DNA of 64,000 nt. Origin: Malacoraja senta. Lineage: Eukaryota. The DNA lies in the NCBI GenBank assembly GCA_038087875.1, contig CM075988.1, positions 7,814,001-7,878,000 on the forward strand, in the 5' to 3' direction. The notes beneath the pieces were generated by a model, which did no database searches, was not told the origin of the DNA, and was given only the letters and a program-made list of their open reading frames with translations. Below are positions 1,191-58,698 of this stretch, in pieces. How positions within the stretch are numbered: position 1 is the stretch's first letter; each line of letters starts with the position of its first letter. The translations under genes and the position numbers were made by a program.

Positions 1191-1411
1191 GGGGCCTGTC
1201 CCACTAGGGCGTCATTTGCGCGTCACGCAGATGGCGCGCAAAGATTTTGTACATCCCAAAATCCTGGGGCGCCGCGCGTGACCGCACGTCACTGCCTACG
1301 TCACCACGCACCATGAACACGTAATGTGCACCATGCGCGCGTCGTGCGTCGTGACGTGTAAATGATGTCGCGTAAATGACGTGCAAATGACGCCCAAGTG
1401 GGACAGGCCCT
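1191..1411. mobile_element. PIF/Harbinger-type MITE, CpG-rich subfamily
   Basis: TIRs GGGCCTGTCCCACT…AGTGGGACAGGCCC; closely similar to 31185-31398. Confidence 0.8.
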
Positions 1412-1516
1412 TAAGCGGAGTAAAATGACTGGGAAGAAGGAGGTTATGTCCAATTAACTTTAGATTTTTTTTTGATTTATTAAGTGGGCTAAAGTGTATT
1501 AGATTTTTTTGCAGTC

Positions 1517-1875: not shown

Positions 1876-2440
1876 TATTTCAAGGTTTTAAATTTTGTAT
1901 CAAAGTTTGGCAGGCTGTGTCATAATTAACTGTCAAAGCTAATCCTGGGCAGGGCTTTTGCTTAAGAGTTACTCTCCTTGTGAAAGTTTGTACCAGGAAT
2001 CCACTCCATGTAAAAGTGGGTACAGTGATAGAGATGTACAGTGTGGAAACAAGTCATGTCCACACCAACCATCAACCAGACATTTTTTATGCTACCATCC
2101 CATGCACAGCTGGTAGAGCTGCAGCCACACAGCAGCAGAGAACCGGGTTTGATCCTGACCTCAGCTGCTGTCTGTGTGGAGTTCGCCCTGTGACTGCTTC
2201 CTCCGGGTGCTCCATTTTCCTCCCACATCCCAAAGACGTGCGGGTTTGTAGGGTAATTGGCCTCTGTGAAAGTAGTGGATGTAAAAGTGTGATAACTGAA
2301 CTAGTGAGAATCAGTGGTCAGCGTGCACAGTGCTGAAGGGGTTGTTTCTACGCTGCATCTCCAAACTAAAACTAAAATCCAAATCTATTATGTATTTCCC
2401 TCATCACATCAAGTCCTCCCAGATTCTACCATTCATCTAG

Positions 2441-2968
2441 ACACTGAAGATAGACACAAAATATTGGAGTAACTCAGCGGGCCAGGCAGCATCTCTGGTG
2501 AAAAGGAATAGGTGACGTTTTGGGTCGAGACCCTTCTTCAGACTGAGAGTCAGGGGAGAGGGAAATTTGAGGTATGAAAAGATACAGAACAAATCAGAGT
2601 CAGCACTGATGGCCAAAGAGCCCACAATTGTCCATTGTTGGCTGTGGAAGAGGTGATTACGAAGGACTATGAACAGTGACACTAGCAGGATGATTAGGTT
2701 GGGGAGGGGTGGAGAGAGAGGGAACGCAAGGGTTACTTGAAATTATAGAAATCAATATTCATACCGCTGGGTTGTAAGCCACCCAAACGAAATATGAGGT
2801 GCTGTTCTTCCAATTTGCGTTCCAGTGGAAGAGGCCCAGGACAGAAAGGTCAGTATGGGAATGGGAAGGGGAGTTGACGTGTGTGGAAACTGGGAGATCG
2901 CGTAGGCACAGGTGGACTGAGCATAGGTGTTCGGTGAAACGATCACCCAGTCTGTGCTTGGTCTCGCC
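2441..2968 (-). mobile_element. Penelope-like element 3' fragment: degenerate GIY-YIG endonuclease C-terminus, 3' UTR and terminal repeat
   Basis: Minus strand reads GETKHRLGDRFTEH… and, after a frameshift, RKLEEQHLIFRLGGLQPSGMNIDFYNFK* (stop 2733-2735), followed by the CTGAAGAAGGGTCTCGACCC repeat. Confidence 0.85.
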
Positions 2969-4194
2969 ACTGGGGAACTGCGACAGCTTACAGCAACAAA
3001 TTAACCTACTGCCCACAACATCCTTCGGATGTGGGAGGAAATTGGTGCACCGGTCCCAGGGTGCATGTGCAAATGAAACACAGACTGCACTGGAGGTCAG
3101 GACTCAACAATTCAGAGCTGAACGGCAGCCTTTCACTTGTTGAGGCTTCAGTAGAACAAGGACTTGCACGCCTGAATGTGGAAATCTGAGACTATCAGGG
3201 TGAAGCGTGGCACTGTGGGCACTGGCTGGGATTCCCAGAATTATATCATGGAATCCAACGTACATAATTACATGGATAGGACTTGTTTGGGGAGATCTGG
3301 ACCAAAAGCGGGCAGGGGGAACTAGTGTATCTGGAACATGTTGACTGGTGTGGGCAAGTTGGGCCGAAGGGCCTGTTTCCATACTGTCTCACTCTATCCG
3401 AACTAGGATCAGGAGCAGGCCACTCGGCTCCTCAAGCCTACTGCATTGATTGTTGGGTGCATTCCATTCTGCCTTTGATAACCATTCAGATCTTGAATTT
3501 GCATTCAGATCTTGCGACAAGCCAGACAGTCTTGGGATATGAGACCAGACTGAGCTCATTGGGATTCCTGGCCTCCTTCTATAATGCAAAGGGGAAATTG
3601 TACTTTTCTATTTTAAAGATTTTAGTTTTAGTTTACAGATGCAGCATGGAGACAGGCCCTTCAGCAAAGTCCACCATGATCATCGATCAATGATTCTTAC
3701 TAGTTGTTTTTTGTAATTGCTGCCAAATGTTTTATCTATTTTAATGTATTCTTTAAAACGACTGTCATTTTCGATATTTCAAGACCATAGTCTTATCTGC
3801 CATTTGATCACGGCTGATCTATTTTTGCTTCTCAACCCCATTCTCTTGCCTTCCCCCCGTAACCTTTGACGCCCTTACTGATAAACCTATCAACCTCCGC
3901 TTTAAAAATACCCAATGTCTTGGCCTCCACAGCCATTTGTGGCAATGAATTCCACAGATGTCACTATTCTTAGGGTGATCTTTAACCTCAGTACTTCTTA
4001 AGAAATTCCTCCTCATCTCCGTTCAAATTTTTCTATTTAGCATCAGTGTCAATATTTTAAAATGTACCTAAATGCTAAAGCTTCTAAAATCCTTGTGACC
4101 TTGACAGCAGACAAAGTCTCACCTCCATCTATGCCTTCAGATAAAAACTTTCTCTACCTGAGATATAGTCACTGCTCTGACCGCATCACAAACT

Positions 4195-4608
4195 CATCAA
4201 GAAGACTGGCTCCGTCCTGGGGGCAGAGTTGGATTCATGGGAGGTGGTCTTGGAGGGGAGGATGCTCCTCAAACTGCGGAGCATCCTGGACAATACAGCT
4301 CACCCCCTCCATGACACACTGGTCAACCTGAGGAGTACCTTCAGCATCAGACTGGTTCCACCAAGATGCAGGACAGAACGCCACAGGAGATCCTTCTTCC
4401 CTGTGGCTATCAAACTTTACAATTCCTTCTCTCCCTTCTGTCGGGGGGTAGACTGAGACTGAGACTGACCCCCCTCCCCAATCTTTGCACAGCCCCCAAG
4501 CCTTTCCACTCGTCACTTTAATTTCATGTTTCATGTATTTTGTGTTTTTATGACTGTTGGCAGATCAATTTCCCTCCTGGGATGAATAAAGTTCTACCGT
4601 ATCGTATC
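4195..4608 (+). mobile_element. Rex1/Babar-type LINE 3' fragment
   Basis: SILDNTAHPLH…RLVPPRCRTERHRRSFFPVAIKLYN C-terminal motif; 3' end with AATAAA and short tandem tail. Confidence 0.75.
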
Positions 4609-5612
4609 TCCCCATTATGTTTGGATTGTCCTCAAATGCTAGAGGCTTGAAGTTCCACAAAATAACATCATCTTGAGAGAAGCAAATGAGCAGCATTTTT
4701 AGATCACGGCAGTAAGTTGCTGGTTCGTTAACATGTCGTCAGGGATTTTCTAGGCCCTTGTGTCTCCTCTTTTGAAAGTTTTTTTTCTAAACCTATGAAA
4801 GTTTTTTCAAAACCTAATTTAGAAATTAATTGTTCTCGGGATAGTGGGCGACATTGTCCGGGAGGTATTTATTCGCCAGCTGTGGTTGACCTCAGGGCAA
4901 AGAATCAATCTTGCAACGTGGAGCTAGAATTTCATGTCGGCACTTGTTTCACCCAAAGGACATTTTCACATAATTCATAACTTGCCAGATTTATTGACTT
5001 GCCACTTTGCGAAGTGCACTTTGAAACCTTGGGTTTGCCAATTCTATAACAAAACCACAAACCAACTTACACCTTTTTTTAAAGAAAGCAAATTTTCAAT
5101 CATCATGCTTCATTTTTCTTTCCCTGGTTCAGTTTATCCTACCCTTTACCCTATTGTTAGATACATCCTAGTCCAATCCGAGCTAAAAGCACTATGGCAC
5201 TGCTTAAGTGAATGGATCATGATTTGCTTTAATTCTAGTATGGGTTATTGGTTAAAAATTATGAATAATCTCGTCCGCAGCCCTCATTTTTCATTACATT
5301 TTAATTTTCTTTATATCTCTAACAACTGATCATACTTGAAATGTGGAGAAATCAGCAATGTTTTACATTACTTATCTATTGTCAGTTGCCAGAATAGTTT
5401 GTAGTATAGAAATGTGTATGCATTAGCAGTGTATCGATGTGTATCAGGTTCAATGGCTTTTAGAAGCAGATGCCTTGAAATTTTAATCTAGTTGTGTTAA
5501 ATCTAGCCTACAGTCTGACAGTTAGCAAGATGTGAACCATTGCCCTGTGACATTGTAGACTCTAGGAACTGCAGATGCTGGTTAATACACAAAAGGGCAC
5601 AAACTGCTGGAG

Positions 5613-6486
5613 CAGTGTTTCCCAAAGTGGGGAACGCGTACCCCCAGTGGTACGCGAAAGGTCTTCAGGGGGTACGTGGCAATTTTCAGCTATTTACTAC
5701 TGAAACATAGATTCATTATTAGAAAAAAATACTGTGGTTACGAATTATTTTATACATGCATATTTGCAAATAAATTATATATTTCGTATGAATTCTCCTA
5801 CTCAAGTTGTGATAGCTGCTTCATTTGGGTAGTTTGCAGACTCCCGCGCGACAACTCGTAAATTTTCGTTCAGCCTCACTTGCCCGAATGGTTTGCACTT
5901 CATGTGCGTCAGTGACTAAAGGGCCTGTCCCACTTTCATGACCTAATTCACGACCTTTTTTACTCGTGGACATTCTTCATCAGGCTAGAAAAACGCCCCG
6001 ACCTACTTAATGCCACGAGTACCTACGACTAGCATCACGGCCTGCTACGACCTACCTACGACCTCCTACGACCTCGTGACGACCATGCTGCGAGTATGAG
6101 TCAAGGGCAAACTCGGCAGAGGTCGTGAATTAGGTCGTTGAAGTGGGACAGGCCCTTAAGAAAGAGTAATAATACGATCGTGGCTAAATGTCTTTCTAGC
6201 CCTTAAATTCCCAATTATGGATCATTGGTTAAAAACTGGGTGTATAAAACGCACAAAAGAGAGCAATAAGGAAGATAGAAGTAGCCACGGTAAACGAGAA
6301 AATGTCGATATATCTGGCCCATATGAATGTAATGAAATTGAGAAGGGTGTGCCACCTGACATCTCTAAAGGACCAACTAAGAAGATGGAGGAGAAACGTA
6401 GTAAGTACGATGTGTAACAAAGGGTACAAGATGCTTACGGAAAATGTTGTTGGGGTACACAGGTATCAACACTTTGGGAATCATTG
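5613..6486. mobile_element. Non-autonomous hAT (Charlie/Buster-like) element containing a nested MITE
   Basis: TIRs CAGTGTTTCCCAAAGTG / CACTTTGGGAATCATTG; 8-bp TSD tgctggag (5605-5612) / tgctagag (6487-6494). Confidence 0.85.
5920..6156. mobile_element. PIF/Harbinger-type MITE
   Basis: AGGGCCTGTCCCACTT…AAGTGGGACAGGCCCT with TAA on both sides. Confidence 0.85.
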
Positions 6487-6865
6487 TGCTAGAGAAACTC
6501 AGAAGGTCAAGCAGCATCTCTGGAAAACATGAAGAGCCTGAGGATAGGTCTCGACCCGAAACATCACCTGTCCATGTTCTCCAGAGCTGGTGCCTGGACT
6601 GCTGAGTTACTCCAGCATGCTGCGGCCTATGACATTGAGAAGACAGAAATAAGTTCAGGGAAGATAGACACAAAATGCTGGAGTAACTCAGCGGAACAGG
6701 CAGCGTCTCTGGAGAGAAGGAACGGGTGACGTTTCGGGTCGAGACCCTTCTTCAGACTCTTCCTAAACAAGTTCAGGGAACTTTATCTCAGATGGTCCAG
6801 CAAACTGCGTTGTGTGTAGAGAGGTGTGCCATTTCCATTGCAGACCAAGACAACTGAGACAATTG

Positions 6866-12501: not shown

Positions 12502-15500
12502 GCTGCACCCGCTGAGTTTCTCCAGTATTTTTGTCTACCCGATTGTGTTACACACACGCTTGTCTTCAAAGTAAAGTGATATCCAAATCATGCTAATTTC
12601 CTTCTTTCTAACCAACCCAGAGGCACTGAAGCCAATTATAACATCGATCTGTGGAAAAGTTGGCCCATTTTGTTGGTATTTAGTTTAGTCTTAGTTTAGT
12701 TTAAGGGCGGCATGGTGGCGCAGCGTTAGAGTTGCTGCCTTACAGCGGTTGCAGGGCCGGAGATCCGGGTATGATCCTGACTATGGGTGCAGTCTGTACA
12801 GAGTTTGTACATTCTCCCCGTCCCTCCTTATGTCCAGACCATATCTTTATATATCTCCTCTGCACGTTCTCTGCTGCTAGATACGGGAGATGATTTGATG
12901 CAAGTGTAATCTTGTTTAGTTCAAAGTGCCTAAAGTTGCACCAACCAGCTCCAGTTCAAAAAGGTATGATTATCTACTTGGGAAGGAGGCAGTGAGAAAG
13001 AGATTAGAAAGATTAGAAAACATCTGAAGCTGAATAATGATAAATTCCTTCTATTATACAAAGATGCCAATTTACTCTCAAATATTTTTCTCCCAAACCG
13101 GCAATTAAAGTGAGGGTCTGTATCCAGCTTAGATACCACACCTTCATTGTTTATTCCCAGAAATATTCCTCAGTTCTCAGTAAGATATGAGTTGAGACAA
13201 TAAGCAACGTTATAAACTGGATACTTTCAAGAGAGAGCTAGATAGGGCTCTTGAAGATAGCGGAGTCAGGGGATATGGGGAGAAGGCAGGAACGGGGTAC
13301 TGATTGGGGATGATCAGCCATGATCACATTGAATGGCGGTGGTGGCTTGAAGGGCCGAATGGCCTACTCCTGCACCTATAGTCTATTGTCTATTGTTACT
13401 GACAACTGTGGCATTGTGAGATTCGGCCCAGATGTGCGCTAAAACAGTGGTGACCAAAGACAGCCATTTGAATCACACAGAAGCTATTACAATGTTTGAT
13501 GATCGAGCCTCCATGCTTTCATAAGTGGTAGTTGCCTTGTATTTTGGTCTACCTATCAAAACACATGATCCACCAGATTAAAATGGGGGCAGAGTAACAA
13601 AATCTTCTGCCACTTTTGTGTTCACTTCTCACACTTTGTTTCTGACTACATAGGTGACGACTGAATGCGGAAGTGGCAGGAAACTAACTCTCATTAAGTT
13701 AAATATATTGAATTTTCTTGAGAATCTCCACACGTAAGTTGTGGTGTCTGTCAAAGGAGGAGCTATCTTTGCCCATTGTGCCAATTGAATTGAATGATAC
13801 AGCATGGAAACAGGCCCCATCGGCCCACTAAGTCCTCACCGACTATTGATCACCCATTCACACTAGTTCTATGTCACCCCATTTTCTCATCCGCTTAGAC
13901 AGACAATAGGTGCAGGAGTAGGCCATACGGCCCTTCAAGCCAGCACCGCCATTCAATGTGATCATGGCTGATCATCCACAATCAGTGCCCCGTTCCTGCT
14001 TTCTCCCCATATCCCCTGACTCCGCTATCTTCAAGAGCCCTATCTAGCTTGAAAGTTTCCAGAGAACCGGCCTCCATCGCCCTCTGAGGCAGAGAATTCC
14101 ACAGACTCACAACTCTCTGTGTGAAAAAACTTCTTGCACACTAGGGTCGATTTTACACAGTTCAATCAACCTACAAACCCGCAGATCTTTAGAATGTGGG
14201 AATAAAACAGAGCACCCAGAGAAAATCCACGCAGTCACAGGGAGAACGTGCAAACTCCATACAGGCAGCACCTGAGGTCAGGATCAAGCTCAGGTATCTG
14301 GCAAATTTCTAGGCTGTCTGAGGGGAAAAGAAACAAAGGCATGGTGGTGTTGTCACAGTGAGAAGAGGAAGGGTGTGAGAATTTCATTGTCCTATCAGGG
14401 ACACATGACAATAAACGCTCTTGAACTCTTGAACTCTTGATCCATATTGCAGGGTGAACCTGCAAAAGTCCCCACTCAGACAGCACCCGAAGGTAAGATC
14501 AAATCAGGGTCTCTGGAGTTGAGAGACAGCAGCTCCACCAGCTGCGCCACTGTGCAACACAATAGTTTCCATTCCCCTGCTCCTTCTAATAGCACTGGAC
14601 GCTATGTCTTTTCAGGTATTTCCCTTAGTAAGTTGCTATTGGATCTGCCTCCGCCATGCCTTCAGGCAGCACATTCCACATTATCACTCGCTGCAAAAGT
14701 ATTTTAGCTCATTTCCCCTTGGGTTCACTGTGTTTTTACTATTAAGCCTAAGATGCCAACATTGTTTAGTGGGAATGAAGAAGATCATATCTGAATCAAT
14801 ACCAGGCACACCTAAAAATGAGATGCCAATCTGGAGAACCTGCACCACAGGATGTGCTCAACTGCAGAGGATGTATGAACGAATAATCCCCAAGTTAGTT
14901 TGTTGGACCTTGCCTGCAAGTTGATTGCTGTGCTTGCCTGAAGGAAATCTCCATTGGCTGTGTGTAGAGGGTTAGAAATTCCTGAGGAAATGAAAGCCTC
15001 ACACAAGTGGTTTCCAAGATTTTCCGTTTCCAGACTCTGCAAACTCCCAGTGAGGCTGCAGTCTGTGCGTATGTCAAGGCTTTGGCAGTCTCACTGACAT
15101 CTTCAAGGAGATCCTTGATCTCCAGTCACCATTGCACAGCTGGGGAAATGGATGCAACTGGTTATGGAAATGTTCAGGGTAGATTTCAGAGTTATTCATG
15201 TTTAGAGCAGTGTCTCAGGGAAAATAGACTTCGGTGTCTCACTAAAATGCTGTGTGGCGTTTCAGTCGAACAGTGAGTTACCAAAAGCAAATTGACCTTT
15301 GAATCTTTGCGATGTTTGAGAAGTGCAGAACATCGAATGGTTATAGAACATTAATTTGTTCTATATTTCTCTACTTCACCTTCTATATCTCTTCTTTCCC
15401 TTTCCCCTGACTTTAGTCTGAAGAAGGGTCTCGACCCGAAACGACACCCATTTCTTCTCTCCAGAGATGCTGCCTGTCAGCATTTTGTGTCTATCTTCAG

Positions 15501-15944
15501 TTTAGACCCACATCTGCAGTTACTTCCTACACATCAAATGGTGCATCCACAAGAGGCCAGTGGTTGAAATTATATCCTTCTGGTTTAATATGTTTCTTGT
15601 TTGTTACAAAATTTGTATTAGGTTCACATTTGAAGATGCCAAACCATTAACTTTTTTCTCTGATTTTATTCTATGCACCTCCCCACTAAGTGATGAGATT
15701 CGGCTCATTATTGCCTTTTCTTAAAATTAAGGCCTGGGGCTGATAGAAAATATTATGAAAATAAAATGACTCACACTTGTAACCCCAGCAGTCATCCTGA
15801 TGTTACTTGAACCTTTCACGTTAATTTTTGCCTATCATCTAATCCTTTAATCTTTAACATATTTGTTATGTGTCTGTCTTTTATTCTTCAACTCTCTTTA
15901 TACTCTTTCCCCTCATGTTTCTTAACCACCGTGGCCTCCACCAC

Positions 15945-17790: not shown

Positions 17791-18119
17791 CTTCTCTAAC
17801 TTCAAGTAATCCTTGCTTCCCCTCTCCCTCCGTCCCTCCCCCACCCTAGTTCTCCGACTAGTTTCACTGTCCTCCTGATTCATTTTACTGTTTGTAAACC
17901 CCGTTGTCACCTTCCCCTCAGCCGACAATGAACCATTGTCCATTTCCTTGATCAACGTCTGCTTTGATCTGTCGTTTTCACACCTTACCCTTCCATATCT
18001 CCACTTTCCTCTCCCCCCTGACTCTCAGTCTGAAGAAGGAGCTCAACCCGAAACTTCACCCATTCCTTCTCTCCAGAGATTCTGCCTGCCCCGCTGAGTT
18101 ACACCAGCATTTTGTGTCT
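17791..18119 (+). mobile_element. 5'-truncated Penelope-like insertion
   Basis: Starts with the FSNFK* codons, same 3' UTR as 2441-2735, ends in the terminal repeat; flanked by direct repeat aacttgta (17783-17790, 18120-18127). Confidence 0.8.
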
Positions 18120-19044
18120 AACTTGTATCTGGCCCCTGAATTGAACAGTGGTGTCACATTTGCCACATTCCACTACACTGGCACCTCCCCCTGCATTGAA
18201 GATTGCGGCTGGCCCTTCTGCAAACCCCACGTTCACTCTAAAAATAATTGCATTCCATATACCCCAGGAAACGTCACTTTAAACATTATCAGAATTTCTA
18301 GAATCTCCAATTCTGCAGTTTCCTCCCTGTTCATTATCTCTATTGACTTCGCAGTGACTGAGGTTTCAAGAGCATCCTCTTCCTTGCTAACAACTCAGCC
18401 AATGATATGAAATACAATGTATGTTAGCCTTTTGTCTCAATATATAAATAGCCTTCAAGGTGTATTCTTCCTAGATAACTGCAATCATCTTTGGGTTCCC
18501 ATTTATGTTTCCAATCTCATATTATTTTTTTGTTTGCTTTAATTTCCTTGTCACGTTCCCTTTCGGCTTAATAAATCCAGTGTAGTTCTCACTTGTATTA
18601 TTCAGTGGTGAATATTTACTTGAGTGGGTACAGTTATAATAGATCATTATTTATCCGTAATATACAGATAACCCATGCATATCTAATCTGACGTTGTTGA
18701 ATAAAGTGCACAGGAAAAACAGTACAGCAAATACATGCGAAATGTGCAGGTTTTCCAATATTATACACAGACAGCAATCAGTTAATTAAGTCGATTTTAT
18801 TCCGAAGCCCGTTGAGCATAGAATATGGAACAGCACAGCCCAAGGACAGGCCCTTCGGCCCACCAAGTCTGTGTCAAATATGATGCCAAGATCATCACTT
18901 ATCTACCTGCACATAACCTGCATCTGTCCAATCCCTGCATGTCTAGATGCCTTTCCAAACGTGGTTGAAATGCCACTATCTGCTTCATCCATGCACTAAT
19001 AACCCTCTACTTAAAAAAACGACATAGAACAGGTCATTCAACCC

Positions 19045-20413: not shown

Positions 20414-23400
20414 GTAAAATACAAAGCCAAGTTGACTATTATATTATCCCAAAAGTGATATTATTGCACATCTATTCATTGGTCGGAGTAATATGGATTT
20501 TGAGAGGATAACATGTGGCTGAATTTGATTTTTTCTAGGCAAGGCAGTGGTGCTTTGAATAATGGAGATCTTCTGATCCACATTAGCTCAGTTGAAAACT
20601 ATTTTTGCAGTTGAAAATTATTTTTCAACCAAGTATTCATTCAGATGAATTTTACAGCTGTTTTGGTTGTATTCACACTTCTCAGAAGAATTGGCCATTC
20701 TAAACTGGGGTAGCAAAAGGTAACAACAGTCCCAAGTGAATTAGTAATTTGGAAAATGGAAGGAAATAAATGGAAGAAGCGGCAGTGGAATAATAATAAG
20801 AAAGCCTGATTCTGCGGCAAGCACACACTCTGTTCCATATAATGGACACACAGAATGTTTCCTGGTCTCGAGATATTTATCCAATTTAGGTCCCGATTGA
20901 GAAGGGGATTTAATTTGCAAGGCATGGTGGCGCATTGGTTTAGTTGCTGCCTCACAGCGCTAGAGACCCGGGATTGATCCTGACTACGCGTGCTGTCTGT
21001 ATAGAGTTTGTACGTTCTCACCATGACCGCAAAGGTTTTCGCCGGGTGCTCCGGTTTCCTCCCACACTCCAAGGGACATACAGATTTGTAGGTTAATTGG
21101 CTTCGGTAAAAATTATAATTAGTCCCGAATGTTTAGGATAATGCGAGGGATCACTGGTCTCCAAACTAAACTGAACTAAACAATGTTTAATAAATTGTAC
21201 TCTCCTGAAGATGCCTCTTATGTTGAGACATGTTCAACAACTGTTCTGTGTGTGAGGTGGGATGAGTGAGGCTGGAGATATCACATTGAACATTTATGGG
21301 AGCTTTTAATCCGCCCAATCCTCCCAAGAGTTTTGACCTATACCTGCAATCTAGGTCCAACAGCCGCACTCACATTAATAGTCAGTGCTTTTGGATACCT
21401 GTTGGTGAGCTACTTACCAATTTAAGGTTTCCGTTGGCCAAATATGCATCCTCCTCAATATCCATTCAGTATTCTACTCCTGTCTATTGACTGACAGCCA
21501 GCAGCCCTGAAACTGCTTGGTTTCTCCACGGATATGAATTCCAAAAGGTTAAAAAAAATAAACAAATGCCACAATTAAATGAAGCAGAATTTCCAGTAAC
21601 GATAGACACAAATTGCTGGAGTAACTCAGTGGGACAGGCAGCATCTCTGTAGTGAAGGGATGGGTGAAGTTTTGGGTCGAGACCCTACTTCAGTAAGTTT
21701 GCCCTTCTGGGGTCTCTTGTTATGTCATCCCTTTCACCATGTTCCCTTTCTGCCTTGCAGTTATTAGGGTTGGAATTATAGCAGGAAAGATCACCAAGCA
21801 ACTCCCTTTCCACTTGTCCTGCAACACTGTGTGGCATTTAGTTTAGTTTAGTTTAGAGATAGAGCATGGAAATAGACCATTTGGACCACCAACTCCACGC
21901 CAATCTCCAGTTCACACTAGTTCAATGCTATCCCGCTTTTTCATCCACTCCCTACACACTAGGGGCAATTTACAGAGGGCCAATTAACCTACAAACCCAC
22001 AAGTCTGGGATGTGGGTGGAAACTGGAGCACCCAGAGGAAACCCACGCTGTCACAGGGAAAACATGTAAACTCCACACAGACAGCACCCAGAGGTCAGGA
22101 TCAAACCTGTGTCTCTATCAGCTGCGTCACTGTGCTGCCACTTAAATGTAACATCACCACTGGCTCAAGATATTAAACTCAGATCAGGGATGGAAGGCGG
22201 ATCCATGCACTCTATAGTTCCCTATTCATAGTGTTCAAGTTCAAAGCTTCTCATTGTTTCTCAGTACACGTGACAATAAACTAAACTAAACACTTCAGTC
22301 TTCGATAGAGCTGTACTCATTAATTTTTAATTAACATAGATGAATCTAGATTGACAACAAGGTTTTTGTTATCAATTATGATGGCCTTCCAACAGGTTGG
22401 AAATTAAAATGCAGCATATTGCATCACTGTGGTGTGCCTGTCCTGACAAAACTAAATAGCTTTCCAGGAATTTTCCTCTGGCTCCAGATAATGCAGAAAC
22501 CAGGCCTGTGTCTCCTTATCGCCACGGTAACCGTCATGCCTCCACCGCTTCCAACAACCATTTTTTTCAGAACATTAGACTCTTGGTGTCTGAAAAGATT
22601 AAAATTCACTGTATGTACACAATTAGAAATAATGTTTTTAATGTACTCATAGTGCCATCTATGAGAGATCTAATATGTGATATTATTGTTGTGAGTGTGT
22701 GTGAGAAGCCTAGATATGTATGATTGTGTTTCATAGTTGCTGATGTTTAATTCACACAGATTATCGTTAGTTTATCTATTTGTGAAATTCAGACCCACCT
22801 CCCATGGAATATTCGCTAAAGCAAACTGAATCTTTTCCCATTTCCAGTTCCCAATGTCAGTATGAGGCACATTCAGGTCAGGGATAATACAGTTGTCTGT
22901 AGCATAATGTTCACACTCTTTCTCATCATTCCGCCTTATCCATAATCTCAGTGGAACACCAGGCATTGTTCTAAGATAATCCCAACTCATTTCACAAAGG
23001 ATCTGCAGGTAGGGCTGCTAACTCTGTTTGGATGCACTCCTAGAAGTTTCGGGACTCTACCTTCCACCTCCAAGCACCTCACCCTCACCATCAGTCACCT
23101 CTGCATCTGTACACAGTGGACGGCTCCATTGTAATCATGTATTGTCTTTCCGCCGACTGGTTAGCACGCAACTGAAACTTTTCACTGTACCTCGGGACAC
23201 GTGACAATAAACTAAACTAACTAACCTGACAACTCCATCTTAGCAGCGCATATACCAAATGGTAATGACGAAAACACAAAGATGCTGCAAATACCAAAAT
23301 GTCACCCCTATTCCTTTTCGCCAGAGATTTTAAAAACATTTCAAAATAGACTTTATTCAAGTTAAAAAAAAGAAAATGCAATACAGGAGATAGACACAAA

Positions 23401-24635
23401 ATGCTGGAGTAACTCAGTGGGACAGGCAGCATCTCTGGAAAGAAGGAACGGGTGATGTTTCGGGTCAAGACCCTTCTTCAGAAAGGAGAAATGGTTAACT
23501 TCTCTGGTCAAATACCCTCTCATGAGAACTAATTGTCCCCGTGAAGATAGTGATGAGTTGAGGACTTAAACCACTGCGGTCCTGCTGGTGAAGGTGCTCC
23601 AGTGTTATTAGGGAGGGAGTTCCAGCAGTAACGATGAAGGGATAGCTAAATGTTTCCAAATTTAGCTGGCTGTGGCTGCATTGTGTATACAAATCAATGA
23701 ATGTTTAGGATGGTGTATGGGCTATCATTGAGCAGGTAGTGTGAGCAAGGGACTAAAGATGGAAATTAGCTACTGGCTATAATCTTGCATATTTACATGT
23801 AAATATTTATTAATATGCATTGTCCCTGTTTAAAAAATAAATAAATAAACAATCAATGAGCCAAGGACAATGAATTCTACAAATTTAGGTGCTCTCTGAC
23901 TAACCTCCCTTCCCCGGTCTCCCACCCAGCCCTCCCCTCCCTCCCATGTGACCCTCCCCTGGACTCCCACATTTCTTCACTCCAACTGCCCCCCGCCACT
24001 CCCCCGCTATTTTCCTCACTCTGCCTTCACAATCTTCATTTCAAACCATCTCTTATTCCTTAGCCTTTGTTCCAGCCATCTATCTATTTAAAAAAAAACT
24101 CACCAATGTCAATCTATTCCTTGCCATGCTATTCCTATTGCAGCCTCTCTCCCCTTTTTCAGCTTTCTTCCCCTCCCCCACAATTAGTCTGAAGAAGGGT
24201 CTCGACTCGAAACGTCACCCATCCATGTTTTCCAGAGATGCTGCCTGACCCGCTGAGTTACTCCAGCACTTTGTGTCTTCCGGCCTGAGGAAAGATGTTG
24301 AGCTTCCTGAGAGTTGTAGGAGTTACACTCATACAATTAATCTAGACACTAAATTTGTGAATGAAATTGATACATTTGGGTAAAAATGACACAGAGTGCT
24401 GGAGTAACTCAGCAGGTCAGACAGCATCTCTGGAGAACATGGATGGCTGCTGTTTCAGGTTGGGACCATTCTCCTGACCTGAAACATCGCAAATCTATGT
24501 TCTCCAGAGATGCCGCCTGACTAGTTAAGTTACTCCAGCACTTTGTATGTTTTTTTATTGTAAATCAATATCTGCAGTTCCTTGTTTTGAATATGGGAAC
24601 TTTGGGTAGAAGGGTTAAAGTTTACAACTAGATGT

Positions 24636-32313: not shown

Positions 32314-35300
32314 CGTGAAGTAATGTGTTGGCTTTGAGAGGGAGAGCTCGCTTATTAATTCTGCCCAGAGAAATTGGATGAGTGCTATGATTGGAAAGCA
32401 CACATGTCAAAACCGATGTAAATGCATCCCAAAATGCTCGGTGTTTTGGCTAGCCTGACAGAAGTGGCACAGTGGCACAACAGTAGAGTAGCTGCCTTAC
32501 AGCTCCAGGGACCTGGGTTCGATCCTGATTACGGGTGCTGCCTGCACAGTGTTTCTACGTTGTCTCTGTGTCTGTACGGGTTTTCTCCAGGTGCTCCAGT
32601 TTCCTCCCACACTCCAAAGACATGTGAATTTGTAGGTTAATTAGCTTTGGTAAAATTGTAAATTGTCCCCAGGGTGTAGGATAGTGCTAGTGTACGTGGT
32701 TATTGCTGGTCGGTGTGAACTTGGTGGGCCGAAGGGCTTGTTTCCGCACCGTTTCTCTAAAGTCTAAAGCTTAAGAGATATCAAGCAACATGGAGGAGTT
32801 AATGAGTTGTGTTAAAGAAGGAACTGCAGATGCCCAGAGAGAGGAGGAGAACTTCTTCAAAGTAGGCAAAGTCTGAAGAAGGGTTTCGGCCCGAAACATT
32901 GCCTATTTCCTTCGCTCCATAGATGCTGCTGCACCCGCTGAGTTTCTCCAGCATTTTTGTGTACCATGGAGGAGTTCATATTGGGTACGGCAACATAGTT
33001 ACTGCATTAATATTGAGAAACCTGGACTAATGGATGCAGTGACCTGTGTTTGAGACCATGGATAGACTGAGACATTTTAATTCTGTTAATTAAATAAAGC
33101 TAGTGTCAGTGATGGATTTGTTATAAATACCATAGGTTTCACTTGAGGGGATGAGATTTGCTGTCCTTTCTCAGAATGTGTGACTTCAGATCCACCAAAG
33201 CACTTGACCGAACGGGAATTTGACATGGGGATTTGGGAATTTGGGTATCCAGTGATGCCCACAACACAATCTCAATCCTTGTAGGCATTTTGCAGAGCTA
33301 GGGATGTATTAATTCCACCTGTGCCAACTAGCAGTGGCATCTTAAAGTAATTGCAACCAACATCTTGCCACAGAGGCATAGACCATCTACTGTCTCCATG
33401 TCTCACTGGAACCCCAGCCTTGTCTGGGGTTAGATTGCTGCTCTGCAAGAACTAAGACGTTTCCACAGGAACAGGTTGTCGTTCTTTGAGAACCGAGAGC
33501 TGATAGCTCGGGGCATATCAGCAGCAGGCTGCCAGCATGTGGGACCTGGTTATCTGAATTGACCTGAGTCTGGTCTCTCTGACGGCCATCGTGTGACCTG
33601 GGCTTTGCCGATAAGCCATCCTTTGCCTACACAGGGAGTGCTGACCTTGGCCGGGATGTTGGCGTATCTTTCCCTGCTGTGGATATCAGGCAACGCGCTC
33701 ACCTGGCCTTGTGTCAGCCAGACTACAACTCCTCATCGTGAGACACTGCAGTCACTGGGGTATTGTTTCCAGTGCCTTCAAAGTCGGCTGCAGGAGGTGC
33801 TCCCCAGTTCATGTAAAGCGGTCGGCAGTGGAGAGGGACATCAGGCGTTGTGGTGGTGCAAAAGAATCTCACTGTGCTGTGCATTCATGACAATAAAAAA
33901 CCGTTGTACCATGGGCTCCTTTCCGGCAAGGTGCTGTCAGGATCACCCGCCAAGAATGTCCTCCTGTTACTGAACGAGGGGATATGTGGTGGAGTAACTC
34001 AGCGGGTCAGGCAGCATCTCTGGAGAAAAAGGGTGGGTGACCTTTCAGCTCGTGACCCTTCTTCAGTCCTGAGCCGAAACGTCACCCATCGTTTTTCTCC
34101 AGAGATGCTGCCTGATCTGCTCAGCTACTCCAGCACTATGTGTCTGTCTTTGCTGTAAACCGGCATCTGCAGTTCCTTGTTTCTACAAAGGGACAGGTCT
34201 CCCAGCTGCCGAGCCACAGCAGATGCGGGAGTGGTGAAGAGCGATGGTTGGAGGACAAAATATTGTTCAGCACTGTTAGGAGGCAATTGTGATTGGAAAA
34301 TATCAAACTATTAATATCTACCGATGCAGAATAAATTTCTTGACTGTTCACAACAAACAATTAAAACATTTTGAGACATTAAAGAATTAAAACATCTGAA
34401 GAAGGGTCTCGACCCGGAACATCTCCTATTCCTTCGCTCCATAGATGCTGCCTCACCACTGAGTTTCTCCAGCAGTTTTGTCTACCTTCGATTTTTCCAG
34501 CATCTGCAGTTCTTTCTTTAACAAAGCATTTTATTTCACTCATTCACTGTGGTTTGCAGATGGAGGGACCGGGGAACGGAGCAGATTGTGTTGCAGTGGC
34601 CTGACTCACTGGAACGTTGACTGTTCCATCCCTTGTTGAATGTTCTTGAATCCAGACTAAGGCACCTTCCCATTGCTCTCCATCAAGCAGATAAAAGCGC
34701 TACAAGGGGAAGTGTCACTTGACAGATGTGCAGAATGTGAACAGTGTCAGGAGGCTGCACTATGGCCAATTATTCTACTGATCTGATACTCTGTGAGGGA
34801 TCCTCTTGACCACATTCTGACAGGGCCGTTCTTTTAAAGCTCAACACAACTCCCGCGGCCCTGAGATGTTATTGAGGTTTCATTTAAGGGTCAATTGTTG
34901 ACAATCATTACGTAGAACAGTACAGCACAGGAACGGGCCACTTGGTCCACAATGTATGTGCCGAACATGATACAAGATAAACTAATCTCATCTGTTTGCA
35001 CATAGTCATGGGGTCATACAAAGTGGAAACAGGCCCTTTGGCCCAATTTACCCACCGTTGAGCAACATGGCCCATCTACACTTAATCTGCCTGCGTTTGG
35101 CCAATCTCTCTCTAAACCTATCCTATCAATGTACCTGTAATTGGTCCATATCCCTCCATTCCGAGATCCATGTGTTTATGTAAAAGCCTCTTAAATGCCA
35201 CTGTCCTTTCAGCCCCCATCACCAGCCCTGGCAGTGCATTGCAGGCACTCACCAACATCTGCGTAAAAATGCACATCTCCTTTAAACTTTGCCCCTTTCA

Positions 35301-36992
35301 CCTTAAAGCTATGGTCTCTAGTCTTTGACATTTCCATCCAGGAAGAAAGGTTCTGATGGTCTATCCTAGTTATGCCTTTTGTAATTTTATACACTTAACA
35401 ACTCTCCCCTCAACCTCTTTTGCTCTAAAGAAAACAATCCCAGTTTATCAAATGCTCATTGTAGCTTTTGACCTGCTGAGTTACTCCAGGATTTTTTTTG
35501 GTCTAACATTCTGGTAAATCTCTTCTGCACCTTCTCCACATCCTTCCTGTAATGGGACGACCAGAACTGCACACAATATTCCAAATGCAGTCTAACCATA
35601 GTCTTACAGAGCTTCAACATGACTTATTGACCCATATACTCAATGCCTGACCAATGAAGGCAAGTATTCTAATGGGCATGGGTAGACAAAAGTGCTGGAG
35701 AAACTCAGCGGGCGTGGCAGCATCTATGGAGCGAAGAAGGGTTTCGGCCCGAAACGTTGCCTATTTCATTCGCTCCATAGATGCTGCCGCACCCGCTGAG
35801 TTTCTCCAGCACTTTTGTCTACCTTCGATTTTCCAGCATCTGCAGTTCGTTCTTAAATATTCTAATAGGTCTATTCTTTTCTCGCTCAACCAAACTCTTG
35901 GGGTCCTTTGGTGCTTGCTGAGGTTTCATTTGAAGATCAGTTATTGACCATCATTACATGGCCAGCTTACACTGAATATATTGCAAAGGCTGGAGATGTA
36001 TACATAACTCCCACCATGTTCTTAGTTCTATAAAGTTCTGTATTATTATTGAAACTCAGCCCAGTGTTGATGTATTTTCTGTATAGTACTGCGGAATTGT
36101 ACTAATACTGCAAGCGTCTACCTGCATTTATGAAGGTCTCTGTTCAACAAAAGGTTCCTGGTTGCTCAGATGACAGATTCTTCAGGATGTAAAGCTTCCT
36201 GATATAAAGTTTAGTTTAGTTTGGAGATACAGGATGGAAACAGGCCCTTCGGCCTACCGAGTTAGCACCGACCAGCAATCTCTGCATACTAACCCTATCC
36301 TACACACACTAGGGACAATCTTACATTTATACATTTCCACCAAACCAATTAACCTACAAACCTATACGTCTTTGGAGTGTGGGAGGCAACCGGAGCACCC
36401 AGAGAAACCCCTCGCAGGTCACGGGGAAAATGTCCAAACTCCATACAAACACGCACCTGTAGTCAGGATCGAACCTGGGTCTCTGGCACTGTAAGGCAGT
36501 AGCTCCTCCACTACGCCATTGTGCCTCCTCCAATGTGGTCTCATTGCATGTCTGGCCAGCCCACTGTTGATTGTGATGTTGCAAGTAAAACAGTGGCACA
36601 TTACAGCTTTCACGAGCAGGTTATTGCCAGTAAAATTGCTGATATTGATTCCTCAGGTGTTTATACTTCAATCACAGCATTTGTCTGCAAGTGGCCTTAA
36701 TGAATCCACTCAGTTGGAATGAACGAGTCCTGTTTGTTTCCTGAGGGATCAACATAACCACAGCTGTTTATGAGGAAGCAAAATCCACTGCTCACTGTGA
36801 ACCACTGGCATTTATTGCTGCTTTAAGCAATGGACCCTTGGGTGACAATTTAGTTTTAGTTTAGCTCAGCTTAGTTTATTGTCACGTGTACTGAGGTACA
36901 GTGAAAAGCTTTTGTTGCGTGCTAACCGTTTGGCAGAAAGACAATACATGATTACAATCGAGCCGTTTACAATGTATAGAAACATGATAAGG

Positions 36993-37349
36993 GATAGACA
37001 CAAAAAGCTGGAGTAACTCAGCGGGACAGGCAGCATCTCTGGAGAGAAGGAATGGGTGACGTTTCAGGTCGAGACCTTTCTTCAGACTAGTTATGGATAA
37101 GGGAAACGAGAGATATAGCCGATGATGTAGAGAGATTAAGAACAATGAATGAAATATATGTAAAAAAGTAACGATGATAAAGGAATCAGGCCATTCTTAG
37201 CTGTTTGTTGGGTGACTACGAGAAATTGGTGCGACTTGGGTGGGGGAGGGATAGAGAGAGAGGGAATGCCGGGGTTATTTGAAATTAGAGAAATCAAGAG
37301 TCATACCACTGGGCTGTAAGCTGCCCAAGTGAAATGAGATGCTGTTCCT
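36993..37349 (-). mobile_element. Penelope-like 3' fragment
   Basis: Minus strand …LGSLQPSGMTLDFSNFK*, then 3' UTR and terminal repeat with an intact hammerhead-like core at 37058-37085. Confidence 0.8.
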
Positions 37350-58464: not shown

Positions 58465-58698
58465 GAAGATAGTCACATTCTGGTTTAAACCGAAGATAGA
58501 CACATAAAGCTGGAGTAACTCAGCGGGACAGGCAGCATCTCTGGAGAGAAAGAATGGGTGAAATTACCATCCTGGCATTCGACCCGAAATGTCACCCATT
58601 CCTTGTCTCCAGAGATGCTGCCTGTCCCACTGAGTTACTCCAGAATTATGTGTCTATCTTCAGTTTAAACCAGCATCTGAAGTTCCTTCCTACACGTC
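58465..58698. repeat. Head-to-head hairpin of the Penelope-derived terminal repeat. Similar doublets at about 6487-6618, 11735-11842, 24385-24545, 33989-34135, 35681-35822, 57325-57445, 59210-59350
   Basis: Arms GAAGATAGACAC…GGAGTAACTCAGCGGGACAGGCAGCATCTCTGGAG and the reverse complement; tcttgtgtaacc repeated at 58453-58464 and 58699-58710. Confidence 0.85.

What the first reader, a model, noticed from the sequence alone, without database searches (positions are those of the whole stretch)
6728..6755. Abundant Penelope-derived short repeat carries a minimal hammerhead-ribozyme-like core (possible retrozyme-like family)
Seen: the minus strand reads CUGAAGA-A-GGGU(CUCG)ACCC-GAAA-CG-UC. This is CUGANGA, a 4-bp stem II with tetraloop, GAAA and an NUH triplet, with helix III reduced to the palindrome ACGU. 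The motif or decayed versions recur at 2513-2541, 15418, 18030, about 21670, about 23455, 24189-24216, 32873, 34396, about 35733, 37058-37085, 46983, 58011 and others. Established: Penelope-like element terminal repeats carry minimal type I hammerheads thought to act as dimers through a palindromic helix III, and an extra A after A9 is tolerated in a viroid hammerhead. Inference: most copies here are 100-150 bp with no coding part, so they may be a non-autonomous ribozyme-bearing family mobilised by the Penelope RT. Caveat: helix I is only about 2 bp (GU/AC).
Basis: partly seen in the sequence, partly recalled or inferred. Interest (0 to 1): 0.8.

Follow-up and report, generated by a model that had tools for sequence, protein, structure and literature searches.

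The report
Minimal hammerhead in Penelope-element ends
This short repeat is the last ~100 bases of a Penelope-like jumping gene in a shark or ray genome and carries the already described "minimal hammerhead" motif, which would likely cut RNA only when two copies pair; it fills about a twentieth of the DNA sampled, but it is a known kind of element.

Summary
Observation confirmed. Window 6728-6755 (-) reads CUGAAGA-A-GGGU(CUCG)ACCC-GAAA-CG-UC. The loose pattern occurs 11 times against 0.24 expected, and all 12 listed sites are copies.

It is the minimal hammerhead (min-HHR) that Cervera & de la Pena (2014) described in pseudo-LTRs of Penelope-like elements (PLEs). All four of their hallmarks are present. 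In this 1.94-Gb elasmobranch-like genome a young family shows pLTR-ORF-pLTR around a 1250-aa frame with RT and GIY-YIG.

The ~100-135-base copies are solo pLTR pieces flanked by target-site duplications. They have two alternative 3' ends (the PLE "tail") and a sharp 5' end at the CAG|U just before CUGAAGA (21 of 50 young copies). Head-to-head inverted pairs are in excess (23 against 4 tail-to-tail).

A separate non-autonomous or retrozyme-like family is not shown. Solo and ORF-linked copies share subfamilies. Tandem arrays are rare: one 13 x 384-nt array, at a single locus. RNA reads show no cleavage or unit-length ends.

Ribozyme activity is untested: there is no Rfam hit, no covariation, and helix I is only 2 bp.

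The scan holds 415 earlier "hammerhead Penelope" notes from at least 30 other genomes, none on look-alike sequence.

Verdict: a new member of a known kind, with unusual abundance (about 5% of the sample).

The parts
6661..6756 (-). Focal solo copy of the PLE terminal repeat (96 nt, short 3' form), starting at T just 5' of CUGAAGA
   Evidence: sequence; profile hits
6728..6755 (-). Minimal hammerhead motif, C3 to C17. CUGAAGA 6749-6755, extra A 6748, helix II 6744-6747/6736-6739 with loop 6740-6743, GAAA 6732-6735, C15.2-G16.2 6730-6731, U16.1 6729, C17 6728. The predicted cut is between 6728 and 6727.
   Evidence: hallmarks compared with PMC4209133
6765..6778 (-). Upstream copy of the 14-nt target-site duplication CCCTGAACTT(G/A)TTT; 6757-6764 is an 8-nt filler (AGGAAGAG)
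   Evidence: read
6647..6660 (-). Downstream copy of the target-site duplication (13 of 14 identical)
   Evidence: read
6483..6624 (.). Head-to-head inverted pair (6483-6536 minus, 6532-6624 plus), lying tail-to-tail with the focal copy
2439..3016 (-). Long 5'-truncated PLE copy: GIY-YIG ORF remnant 2739-3016, stop, ~250-nt 3'UTR ending in a polypyrimidine tract and CTGAC..CAG, then the hammerhead unit 2451-2542
36992..37350 (-). Long copy with ORF end (...LGSLQPSGMTLDFSNFK*), 3'UTR and unit (hammerhead 37058-37085)
17793..18131 (+). Long copy with 3'UTR and unit (hammerhead from 18030); 5' limit approximate
15399..15530 (+). Copy with upstream 3'UTR, an internal deletion and the 'tail' 3' form
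21592..21698 (-). Solo copy, abrupt 5' end, short 3' form
23381..23482 (-). Solo copy, abrupt 5' end at TCTGAAGA, short 3' form
24169..24281 (+). Copy with upstream 3'UTR; motif passes the strict descriptor
24382..24584 (.). Head-to-head inverted pair joined in helix II
32868..32968 (+). Solo copy of the GGGTTTCGGCCC/GUU subfamily (same subfamily as the young intact element)
33986..34180 (.). Head-to-head inverted pair; one arm complete from CUGAAGA, the other starting in the 3' half of helix II
34394..34517 (+). Solo copy, tail form
35680..35855 (.). Head-to-head inverted pair
46979..47075 (+). Solo copy, abrupt 5' end
57934..58041 (-). Copy with exact CTGAAGAAGGGTCTCGACCCGAAA (58015-58038)
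58475..58693 (.). Head-to-head inverted pair. Further pairs at 10759-10948, 11703-11843, 56886-57028 and 59199-59367.

Best explanation
The 28-base motif is the minimal type-I hammerhead motif of the pseudo-LTR of a Penelope-like retrotransposon. The ~100-135-base copies are solo copies of that terminal repeat flanked by target-site duplications, likely made by the element's own reverse transcriptase starting at two internal sites and running to an RNA 5' end at the motif's 5' edge.

Shown:
- The repeat is the 3' end of copies that carry a GIY-YIG ORF end.
- In a young family it stands on both sides of a 1250-aa RT + GIY-YIG frame.
- Copies end about 66-69 nt (short form) or about 100-105 nt (tail form) downstream of the predicted cut.
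- 42% of young copies start within 7 nt around CAG|U, with duplications of 7-14 nt and filler bases.
- Inverted head-to-head pairs are in excess.

Inferred:
- The two 3' ends are the two internal initiation sites that Frangieh et al. 2024 mapped in an Anolis PLE.
- The fixed 5' end is an RNA 5' end (a start site at an Inr-like TCAGTCT, or processing at a 3'-splice-site-like polyY-YAG) rather than an RT pause.
- The hammerhead would cut after GUC/GUU only when two copies pair through the ACGU palindrome, probably with protein help. Solo copies and inverted pairs would then be inert by themselves.

The short copies are best read as by-products of each PLE subfamily's RNA, not as a separate family.
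For: Motif and hallmarks:
- Sequence.
- Extra A between A9 and 10.1 in 89 of 91 copies.
- G10.1-C11.1 as G-C in 60 and G-U in 16 of 92 copies.
- No helix III, with CG at 15.2/16.2.
- These are the four features that PMC4209133 lists (text read).

PLE identity:
- 5 of 5 long genomic copies, plus 3 window copies, run from the ORF end into the unit.
- GIY-YIG scores 30.5 bits against a cut-off of 22.6.
- L045 has a 165-nt direct repeat on both sides of a 1250-aa frame; L043 is a partial tandem; L046 has an inverted truncated copy. Copies are 99.0-99.9% alike.
- Full-length 5' ends coincide in 6 of 13 informative loci.

Tail: 39 short and 11 tail 3' ends among 50 young copies. This matches the 30-40-bp 'tail' in PMC8557442 (passages) and the two RT start sites in PMC11167929 (main text).

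Solo insertions:
- Duplications and fillers are seen.
- 21 of 50 young copies start at pLTR positions 23-29.
- 29 of 82 old copies have an abrupt 5' end.

No separate lineage.

Inverted pairs: 23 head-to-head against 4 tail-to-tail, p = 3e-4.

Conservation:
- Non-CpG core positions have a mean majority fraction of 0.946, against 0.867 for the rest of the unit (p = 0.003).
- Sites that vary inside the motif are N7, loop 2, the 10.4-11.4 pair (U-A to U-G), H17 (C/U) and 1.1 (A/G).

Not chance: 14 strict-descriptor motifs in 264 kb, against 0 in each of 20 shuffles.
Against: - No hammerhead model of Rfam matches, at the gathering score or at E up to 10.
- Helix II shows no compensatory changes within the family.
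- Helix I is 2 bp.
- Minimum-energy folds of monomer and dimer RNAs do not give the hammerhead fold. GAAGAAGG pairs with downstream CCUUCU stretches, and in the young subfamily GUUUCG/CGAAAC forms a rival hairpin.
- No retrocopy 5' ends pile up at the cleavage site.
- A polyA RNA run shows no place where many molecules begin or end. Reads cover both strands equally, and 98-99% run on into unlike flanks.
- The core is not uniquely conserved: block CTGAGTTACTCCAGC is equally conserved, and a subfamily test free of circularity gives 2/28 against 7/30 variable sites, p = 0.15.
- Full-length copies start 27 nt upstream of the motif, not at CAG|U. The RNA behind solo copies must therefore differ from the one behind full-length copies, or the 5' end is an RT stop.
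- Published work found the hammerhead dispensable for insertion in vitro (PMC11167929).
Confidence: 0.72

Rival explanations
1. The short units are a self-propagating non-autonomous family (SINE-like or retrozyme-like). Each solo copy would be transcribed from its own start at CAG|U and copied by the PLE enzyme from the internal initiation sites, or circular/multimeric hammerhead-processed RNAs would be copied by rolling circle.
For: - The units have discrete 5' and 3' ends, target-site duplications and very high numbers.
- Internal RT initiation means no defined RNA 3' end is needed (PMC11167929).
- One array of 13.1 units of 384 nt, 99% alike, is flanked by a duplication. Each unit holds one motif, as expected from a multimeric or circular template.
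- A 2026 preprint argues that animal retrozymes derive from PLE pLTRs (abstract and Results read).
Against: - Abrupt, ORF-linked and inverted copies share the same subfamily haplotypes.
- Young solo copies are 98-100% identical to the intact element's pLTR.
- Only 7 adjacent same-strand pairs occur among 132 copies, with no multi-unit array in 264 kb.
- The deletion junction of the 384-nt array occurs 12 times, all inside that one array.
- RNA reads show no unit-length ends.
Confidence: 0.2
2. The motif is hammerhead-like by descent but does not work as a self-cleaving RNA in this family. It would be kept because the same bases serve another role at the 5' edge of the unit: a start site, a splice acceptor next to it, an RT or protein binding site, or a palindrome used in joining cDNAs.
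For: - Cleavage has left no trace in retrocopies or RNA reads.
- The predicted folds are unfavourable.
- The 5' ends of solo copies map to the motif's edge, which is a near-palindrome TCAG-T-CTGA preceded by a ~65-nt polypyrimidine tract and YAG.
- One old locus carries the junction AAG|TCTGAAG, exactly as expected if this YAG is used as a splice acceptor.
- Many inverted pairs are joined inside helix II.
- Papers report low in vitro activity (PMC4209133) and a hammerhead dispensable for insertion (PMC11167929).
Against: - All invariant hammerhead positions are kept in four subfamilies, while N7, loop 2 and H17 vary only within what the ribozyme allows.
- The same architecture recurs in PLEs of distant animals (PMC4209133).
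- The Anolis PLE hammerhead cleaves when its protein is added (PMC11167929).
Confidence: 0.25
3. A chance resemblance to the hammerhead core in an unrelated repeat.
For: The core is short (CUGANGA, GAAA, UH) and loose descriptors give many hits in large genomes (PMC4209133).
Against: - 14 strict-descriptor motifs against 0 in 20 shuffles, all in this one family.
- All four non-descriptor hallmarks are present.
- The position in a PLE pLTR is the expected one.
Confidence: 0.01

Closest known systems
Minimal hammerheads (min-HHR) of metazoan Penelope-like elements (Cervera & de la Pena 2014, PMC4209133)
   Same: Type-I core CUGANGA/GAAA/UH; no helix III or loop 3; palindromic 15.2-16.2; one unpaired base between A9 and G10.1; G10.1-C11.1; short helix I; location in pLTRs; mostly seen as dispersed single motifs from truncated elements.
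   Different: - Helix II has 4 bp with a tetraloop, against 7-8 bp in the Schistosoma families.
- Helix I is only 2 bp, as in the D. virilis variant.
- Abundance is far higher: about 14 strict motifs per 264 kb, which extrapolates to ~1e5 motifs and ~8.6e5 units. The paper gives about 4,000 and 9,000 motifs for coelacanth and Xenopus.
- I found no paper on cartilaginous fish in my searches. The 2026 preprint sampled one chondrichthyan, for tandem retrozymes only.
Canonical EN+ Penelope-like elements (Penelope/Poseidon, Neptune clades; Craig et al. 2021 PMC8557442; Frangieh et al. 2024 PMC11167929)
   Same: Single ORF with RT and C-terminal GIY-YIG; pLTRs from partial tandems; inverted 5'-truncated copy at the 5' end; optional 30-40-bp tail (two internal RT start sites); hammerhead in the pLTR; heavy 5' truncation.
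   Different: - Both RT start sites lie upstream of the first Met of the ORF here, whereas in the Anolis element they lie inside the ORF.
- A large class of ~100-nt solo copies has a fixed 5' end at the hammerhead's 5' edge. I did not find this stated in the texts I read.
- The clade (Neptune or Poseidon) was not resolved here.
Non-LTR retrozymes of animals (Cervera & de la Pena 2020 PMC7229834; Li, Clavereau & Pollet 2026 preprint)
   Same: Non-coding units with a type-I hammerhead, related to PLE pLTRs. One 13 x 384-nt head-to-tail array with a flanking duplication has the retrozyme layout.
   Different: - The repeats of this finding are dispersed single units or inverted pairs, not tandem arrays.
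- No circular or unit-length RNA was seen.
- The motif is the minimal variant, not the canonical type I with loop-loop contacts.
- The one array is an internally deleted PLE confined to one locus.
D. virilis Penelope hammerhead next to an intron end (Cervera & de la Pena 2014; Arkhipova et al. 2003, as cited there)
   Same: A 2-bp helix I, and a splice-acceptor-like site (polypyrimidine tract, CTGAC-type branch motif, YAG) ending exactly at the 5' end of helix I.
   Different: Use of the acceptor is supported here by a single old retrocopy locus. The matching donor lies after the tail, so the 'intron' would be the whole ORF rather than a 75-nt 5'UTR intron.

Membership tests
min-HHR of metazoan PLEs (Cervera & de la Pena 2014) | Conserved core: C3UGANGA9, G12AAA15.1, U16.1-H17 | tested here: met
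   for the focal copy. Majority fractions are 0.90-0.98 at non-CpG core sites in 81-111 copies, and H17 is C in 91 and U in 15 of 109.
min-HHR of metazoan PLEs (Cervera & de la Pena 2014) | No helix III/loop 3; positions 15.2-16.2 palindromic, so that two copies can form helix III | tested here: met
   GAAA-CG-UC gives ACGU. Departures are CpG decay to TG or CA. Whether dimers actually form was not tested.
min-HHR of metazoan PLEs (Cervera & de la Pena 2014) | One unpaired nucleotide between A9 and 10.1, and a G10.1-C11.1 pair | tested here: met
   The extra base is A in 89 of 91 copies. 10.1-11.1 is G-C in 60 and G-U in 16 of 92.
min-HHR of metazoan PLEs (Cervera & de la Pena 2014) | Lies in the pseudo-LTRs of a PLE | tested here: met
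   L045:2339-2503 and 6335-6499 flank a 1250-aa RT/GIY-YIG frame.
min-HHR of metazoan PLEs (Cervera & de la Pena 2014) | Self-cleavage, as a dimer | not testable with these tools
   Indirect looks found no trace: no 5' ends at the cut site in 50 young or 132 sampled copies, and no read pile-ups.
Rfam type-I hammerhead (canonical, with helix III and loop-loop contacts) | Match to the Rfam covariance model at its gathering score | tested here: not met
   0 matches in the window at gathering score. None of the 6 matches at E up to 10 in 6640-6800 is a hammerhead.
Penelope-like element, EN+ canonical | One ORF with reverse transcriptase followed by a C-terminal GIY-YIG nuclease | tested here: met
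   In the L045 frame both Pfam hits are below cut-off: RVT_1 at aa 734-903 (26.4 bits, cut-off 29.6) and GIY-YIG at aa 1154-1187 (19.2 bits, cut-off 22.6). Older copy L018 has GIY-YIG at 30.5 bits. Relative P0022 passes both cut-offs.
Penelope-like element, EN+ canonical | pLTRs, partial tandems, an inverted 5'-truncated copy, and an optional 30-40-bp tail | tested here: met
   (L043 tandem, L045 pLTRs, L046 inverted copy). 23 head-to-head pairs. 11 tail and 39 short ends, about 37 nt apart.
Non-LTR retrozyme | Head-to-tail tandem repeats (about 150-450 bp), each unit with a type-I hammerhead | tested here: not met
   For the repeats of this finding there are 7 adjacent same-strand pairs among 132 copies and no array in 264 kb. 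One 13 x 384-nt array exists elsewhere in the genome, but its junction is unique to that locus.
Non-LTR retrozyme | Expressed as unit-length linear and circular RNA | tested here: inconclusive
   One polyA run only. It shows no begin/end pile-ups, and the few 'goes back' joints fit genomic partial duplications. PolyA selection would lose small circles.
SINE | Head derived from tRNA, 7SL or 5S with an internal Pol III promoter | not tested
   No tRNA or Rfam match was seen in the unit, but no dedicated promoter test was run. A T4-5 run lies inside the unit, upstream of its 3' end.

The most novel reading that the evidence does not exclude
The ~100-nt hammerhead-bearing units come from a distinct short RNA whose 5' end is set exactly at the ribozyme's 5' edge, by a dedicated start site or by an unrecognised processing step at the polyY-YAG site. 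This RNA would be copied from internal initiation sites. The units would then be a SINE-like parasite built from nothing but a PLE pseudo-LTR, one that has filled about 5% of a vertebrate genome, with the helix II hairpin acting as the joining point for double-primed, head-to-head insertions.
Probability: 0.15. Interest if true: 0.6.

Novelty: new member of a known kind. Interest (0 to 1): 0.35.

Why it matters
Three things are worth recording.

- Scale: about 0.45 units per kb in 200 kb taken at arbitrary places. That extrapolates to ~8.6e5 units and ~1e5 motifs that still pass a strict descriptor, a much higher density than the published counts I read.
- A clean natural data set on PLE insertion: a young family more than 99% identical with intact frames, two sharp 3' ends, a sharp 5' end for solo copies at the motif's edge, fillers and template jumps at 5' junctions, and inverted pairs joined in helix II. 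Together these could test the internal-initiation model from the Anolis element in a second lineage.
- Function: neither retrocopies nor RNA reads bear a trace of cleavage. This adds to the open question of what these ribozyme motifs do.

Tried and rejected
1. Rfam: nothing at gathering score. At E up to 10 there were only weak non-hammerhead matches.

2. Pairs of exact 31-mers 1-4 kb apart on one strand (L001-L004), tried as candidate full-length elements. They were just dense unrelated copies, and the 584-aa RT ORF in L001 lies on the other strand.

3. The Pfam GIY-YIG genome search mostly returned a second PLE family (759-aa frames, tandem arrays). Only L008 belonged to this family.

4. L019's 424-aa frame: its first ~146 aa are not PLE, and it had no Pfam hit.

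5. RNA:
- No RNA holder was listed by the index.
- The one raw-read polyA run (X24, about 6% read) gave depth of 1200-1700 over the unit on both strands, against 20-70 over the ORF end at 90% likeness.
- At 97% likeness the start of the young ORF had almost no cover.
- So the run carries no information on expression of intact copies, on start sites, or on cleavage.

6. Minimum-energy folding of monomers and dimers does not return the hammerhead fold. This is neither support nor refutation for a protein-assisted, dimeric motif.

7. Covariation: no double changes in helix II.

8. Subfamily conservation test: the first version (2/28 against 18/63) was circular, because the clusters were defined on the flank. 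The corrected version gives p = 0.15.

9. Splicing as the source of abrupt 5' ends: abrupt copies share no upstream exon. The predicted donor-acceptor junction exists at one locus only.

10. Full-length 5' end as the source of the solo 5' end: rejected, because full-length copies start 27 nt further upstream.

11. HDV-like or other ribozymes that cut at their own 5' edge: no Rfam match.

12. Other min-HHR families in the 264-kb sample: none.

13. Literature on cartilaginous fish: the search returned nothing relevant among the 15 papers listed.
Full report
**1. The observation**

On the minus strand the window reads CTGAAGA (6755-6749), A (6748), GGGT (6747-6744), CTCG (6743-6740), ACCC (6739-6736), GAAA (6735-6732), C-G (6731-6730), T-C (6729-6728), then ACC. 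The stated coordinates therefore span hammerhead positions C3 to C17. The loose pattern CTGANGA-N13-GAAA has 11 matches in the window, against a mean of 0.24 (largest 3) in 100 shuffles. A profile of the surrounding repeat finds 41 copies in the window, or 43 with a longer profile. The exact 31-mer occurs 13,276 times in the 1.94-Gb genome, and the reversed control never.

**2. What the repeat is**

The shared unit is about 95 nt, from T-CTGAAGA to ...TTTTGTGTCTAYCTT. A fraction of copies add about 37 nt, ending ...CCAGCATCTGCAGTTCYTTCYTACA.

Some copies continue upstream through a pyrimidine-rich 110-250-nt stretch into the end of an open frame...EEQHLIFRLGSLxPSGMNIDFSNF*.
- That frame carries a GIY-YIG domain (30.5 bits, cut-off 22.6).
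- Its relatives in the protein collection are 650-950-aa proteins with RVT_1 followed by a C-terminal GIY-YIG. One is from the shark Chiloscyllium punctatum.
- In 5 of 5 long genomic copies and 3 window copies, likeness between copies stops at the end of the unit or of its extension.

A search with the shark protein found frames of up to 1,302 aa. Four loci fetched around such frames are 99.0-99.9% identical to each other.
- L045 has a 165-nt direct repeat (2339-2503 and 6335-6499) on both sides of a 1,250-aa frame. That frame has weak RVT_1 and GIY-YIG hits, both below Pfam's cut-offs.
- L043 is a partial tandem.
- L046 has an inverted 5'-truncated copy at its 5' end.

These are the textbook structures of Penelope-like elements (PLEs), as given in PMC8557442 (passages read). 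The window itself holds no PLE reverse transcriptase. Its RT ORFs at 41007-44299 are of another kind.

**3. The motif against the known class**

Cervera & de la Pena (PMC4209133; parts 1-2 of the text read) defined a minimal hammerhead with no helix III. It would form helix III between two copies, and they found it in the pLTRs of all PLEs they examined. They list four features that were not part of their search descriptor:
- families with covariation;
- a conserved G10.1-C11.1 pair;
- a palindromic 15.2-16.2.

Here the extra base is A in 89 of 91 copies. 10.1-11.1 is G-C or G-U in 76 of 92. 15.2-16.2 is C-G, decaying only as CpGs do. Helix I is 2 bp (U-A, G-C), followed by an A/C mismatch. 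The paper describes a 2-bp helix I for the D. virilis variant.

A strict descriptor (core, extra base allowed, helix II of at least 4 bp, GAAA, palindromic pair, UH) finds 14 motifs in 264 kb, all in this family. It finds 0 in each of 20 shuffles. No Rfam hammerhead model matches, even at E up to 10. That is expected for a motif without helix III, but it means membership in the canonical Rfam families is not met.

**4. Conservation**

In 75-111 sampled copies the non-CpG core positions have a mean majority fraction of 0.946, against 0.867 for the rest of the unit (Mann-Whitney p = 0.003). The sites that vary inside the motif are N7, loop 2, the closing pair of helix II (U-A to U-G), H17 (C or U) and 1.1 (A or G). 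All of these are tolerated by the ribozyme.

There are limits to this support.
- A second block (CTGAGTTACTCCAGC) is equally conserved.
- When subfamilies are defined on a separate part of the unit, the motif has 2 of 28 variable sites against 7 of 30 next to it (p = 0.15). My first version of this test was circular and should be ignored.
- Helix II shows no compensatory double changes.

**5. How the short copies arose**

I took an unbiased sample of 264 kb: the window plus twenty 10-kb pieces at arbitrary places. It holds 132 copies covering 5.0% of the bases. Of these, 89 lie in the 200 kb outside the window.

*3' ends.* The ends fall in two groups.

*Young subfamily.* This subfamily has 5,526 exact 70-mers in the genome, and I examined 50 distinct copies of it.
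- 39 end at pLTR positions ~120-128 and 11 at 155-160. That is about 66-69 and 100-105 nt beyond the predicted cut, and about 37 nt apart.
- This matches the optional 30-40-bp 'tail' of PLEs. It also matches the two adjacent internal RT start sites mapped in vitro for an Anolis PLE (PMC11167929, main text read).
- At the 5' side, 21 of the 50 start at positions 23-29 (11 of them at A26 or G27). This is at the CAG|T directly before CUGAAGA.
- One starts at position 6, none at position 1, and 28 run on upstream.

*Insertion signatures.* Many of these solo copies have target-site duplications of 7-14 nt. Many also have 4-30 extra bases at the 5' junction, some of them re-copied pieces of the unit. 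The focal copy is of this type: duplication CCCTGAACTT(G/A)TTT at 6765-6778 and 6647-6660, with an 8-nt filler.

*Older copies.* Of 82 copies that hold the CUGANGA box, 29 have an abrupt 5' end, 33 continue upstream and 20 abut an inverted copy.

*Full-length copies.* These start 27 nt further upstream, at the same base in 6 of 13 informative loci (7 of the 20 regions fetched gave no match).

*Reading.* The fillers and template jumps suggest that the enzyme reached a real RNA 5' end. This is an inference. The site fits both an initiator-like TCAGTCT and a splice-acceptor-like polyY-CTGAC-YAG, and I could not tell these apart.

*Inverted pairs.* Head-to-head pairs are in clear excess: 23, against 4 tail-to-tail and 7 head-to-tail (binomial p = 3e-4). 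Many are joined inside helix II or at the near-palindrome TCAG-T-CTGA. Priming on both DNA strands, reported for the Anolis enzyme, followed by annealing of the two cDNAs at these self-complementary spots, would explain this. That is also an inference.

**6. Is it a non-autonomous or retrozyme-like family?**

- The same subfamily haplotypes occur in abrupt, ORF-linked and inverted copies, and tail use is independent of the 5' class.
- Five of nine young solo copies are 100% identical to the intact element's pLTR. This fits by-products of each PLE subfamily's RNA better than a lineage of its own.
- Retrozymes are defined by head-to-tail arrays and circular RNA (PMC7229834, passages; 2026 preprint). 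The sample has no such array.
- One array does exist elsewhere: 13.1 units of 384 nt, 99% alike, flanked by a duplication. Each unit is an internally deleted element (pLTR position 291 joined to 3896 at an 8-nt microhomology) holding one motif. Its junction occurs 12 times, all in that array. It shows that multimeric or circular templates can be copied, but not that a family spreads this way.

**7. RNA**

The index listed no RNA holder. One raw-read polyA run was laid twice.
- Reads cover the unit at equal depth on both strands, and 98-99% run on into unlike flanks.
- No place shows many molecules beginning or ending.
- The start of the young ORF is almost uncovered.

The units thus appear mostly as passengers in other transcripts. 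The data say nothing about cleavage in the tissue where the element is active. No retrocopy 5' ends gather at the cleavage site. This agrees with the published finding that unprocessed RNA is the template. Minimum-energy folds favour rival pairings over the hammerhead.

**8. Verdict**

The motif belongs to a class published in 2014, and its carrier is an ordinary PLE, if an extraordinarily prolific one. The proposal of a separate retrozyme-like family is not supported by the tests I could run. The fixed 5' end of solo copies at the motif's edge, and the joining of inverted pairs in helix II, are details I did not find in the texts I read, and they remain mechanistically open.

The scan has 415 earlier notes with the words 'hammerhead Penelope' from at least 30 other genomes. 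None is on look-alike sequence.

Noticed in passing
L043-L046 (G000 C7:18.12 Mb, C1:233.47 Mb, C8:47.64 Mb, C19:1.75 Mb): A young PLE family, with copies 99.0-99.9% identical and uninterrupted frames of 1,222-1,250 aa. The genome search listed open frames up to 1,302 aa at many loci, so the family looks recently active.
   Followed up: partly
L097 (G000 C1:28901300-28908300), array at 918-5930: 13.1 head-to-tail units of 384 nt, 99% alike. Each is an internally deleted PLE (5' 291 nt joined to the last ~100 nt of the 3'UTR) with one minimal hammerhead, and the whole array is flanked by a ~10-nt duplication. The deletion junction is found nowhere else in the genome.
   Followed up: yes
L098 (G000 C4:79900400-79903400): An old inverted pair in which both arms carry ...CTCCTCAAG|TCTGAAGAAGG. 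This is the sequence after the tail (ending at a good donor, AAG|GTATGC) joined exactly to the base after the polyY-CAG in front of the hammerhead, as if a spliced RNA lacking the whole ORF had been copied. It is the only such locus at up to 3 mismatches in 31.
   Followed up: partly
L006, L007, L009-L017 (e.g. G000 C14:18.24-18.41 Mb, C5550, C4423): A second PLE family with 759-aa frames ending ...RAERLWIEALQTKEPNGLNLA. It stands in tandem arrays with periods of about 1.44-1.56 kb and 7.5 kb. Some units carry CTGACGA-A-GCTA(cagtga)TAGC-GAAA just before the frame, a hammerhead-core-like string that does not fit the UH rule after GAAA.
   Followed up: partly
window 41007-44299 (-): Two adjacent open frames (370 and 525 aa) with RVT_1. 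The longer one also matches the short ALKBH8_N model. They do not match the PLE ORF, so they are probably LINE remnants.
   Followed up: partly
pLTR of L045 (2339-2503) and window copies with tails, e.g. 15494-15530, 34484-34517: The start of the tail (TCTTCAG / CCTTCG...) is complementary to the CUGAAGA box, and GAAGAAGG can pair with the pyrimidine leader or with CCUUCU downstream. Predicted folds therefore sequester the hammerhead core.
   Followed up: partly
L001:374-622: Three to four head-to-tail copies of a 66-nt inner piece of the unit, lacking the hammerhead: a small internal tandem duplication.
   Followed up: no
L112 and L071 (young solo copies): The 5' junction fillers are second, partial copies of the hammerhead segment (pLTR positions ~31-58 and 32-39). 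This points to template jumps after the enzyme reached the 5' end.
   Followed up: partly
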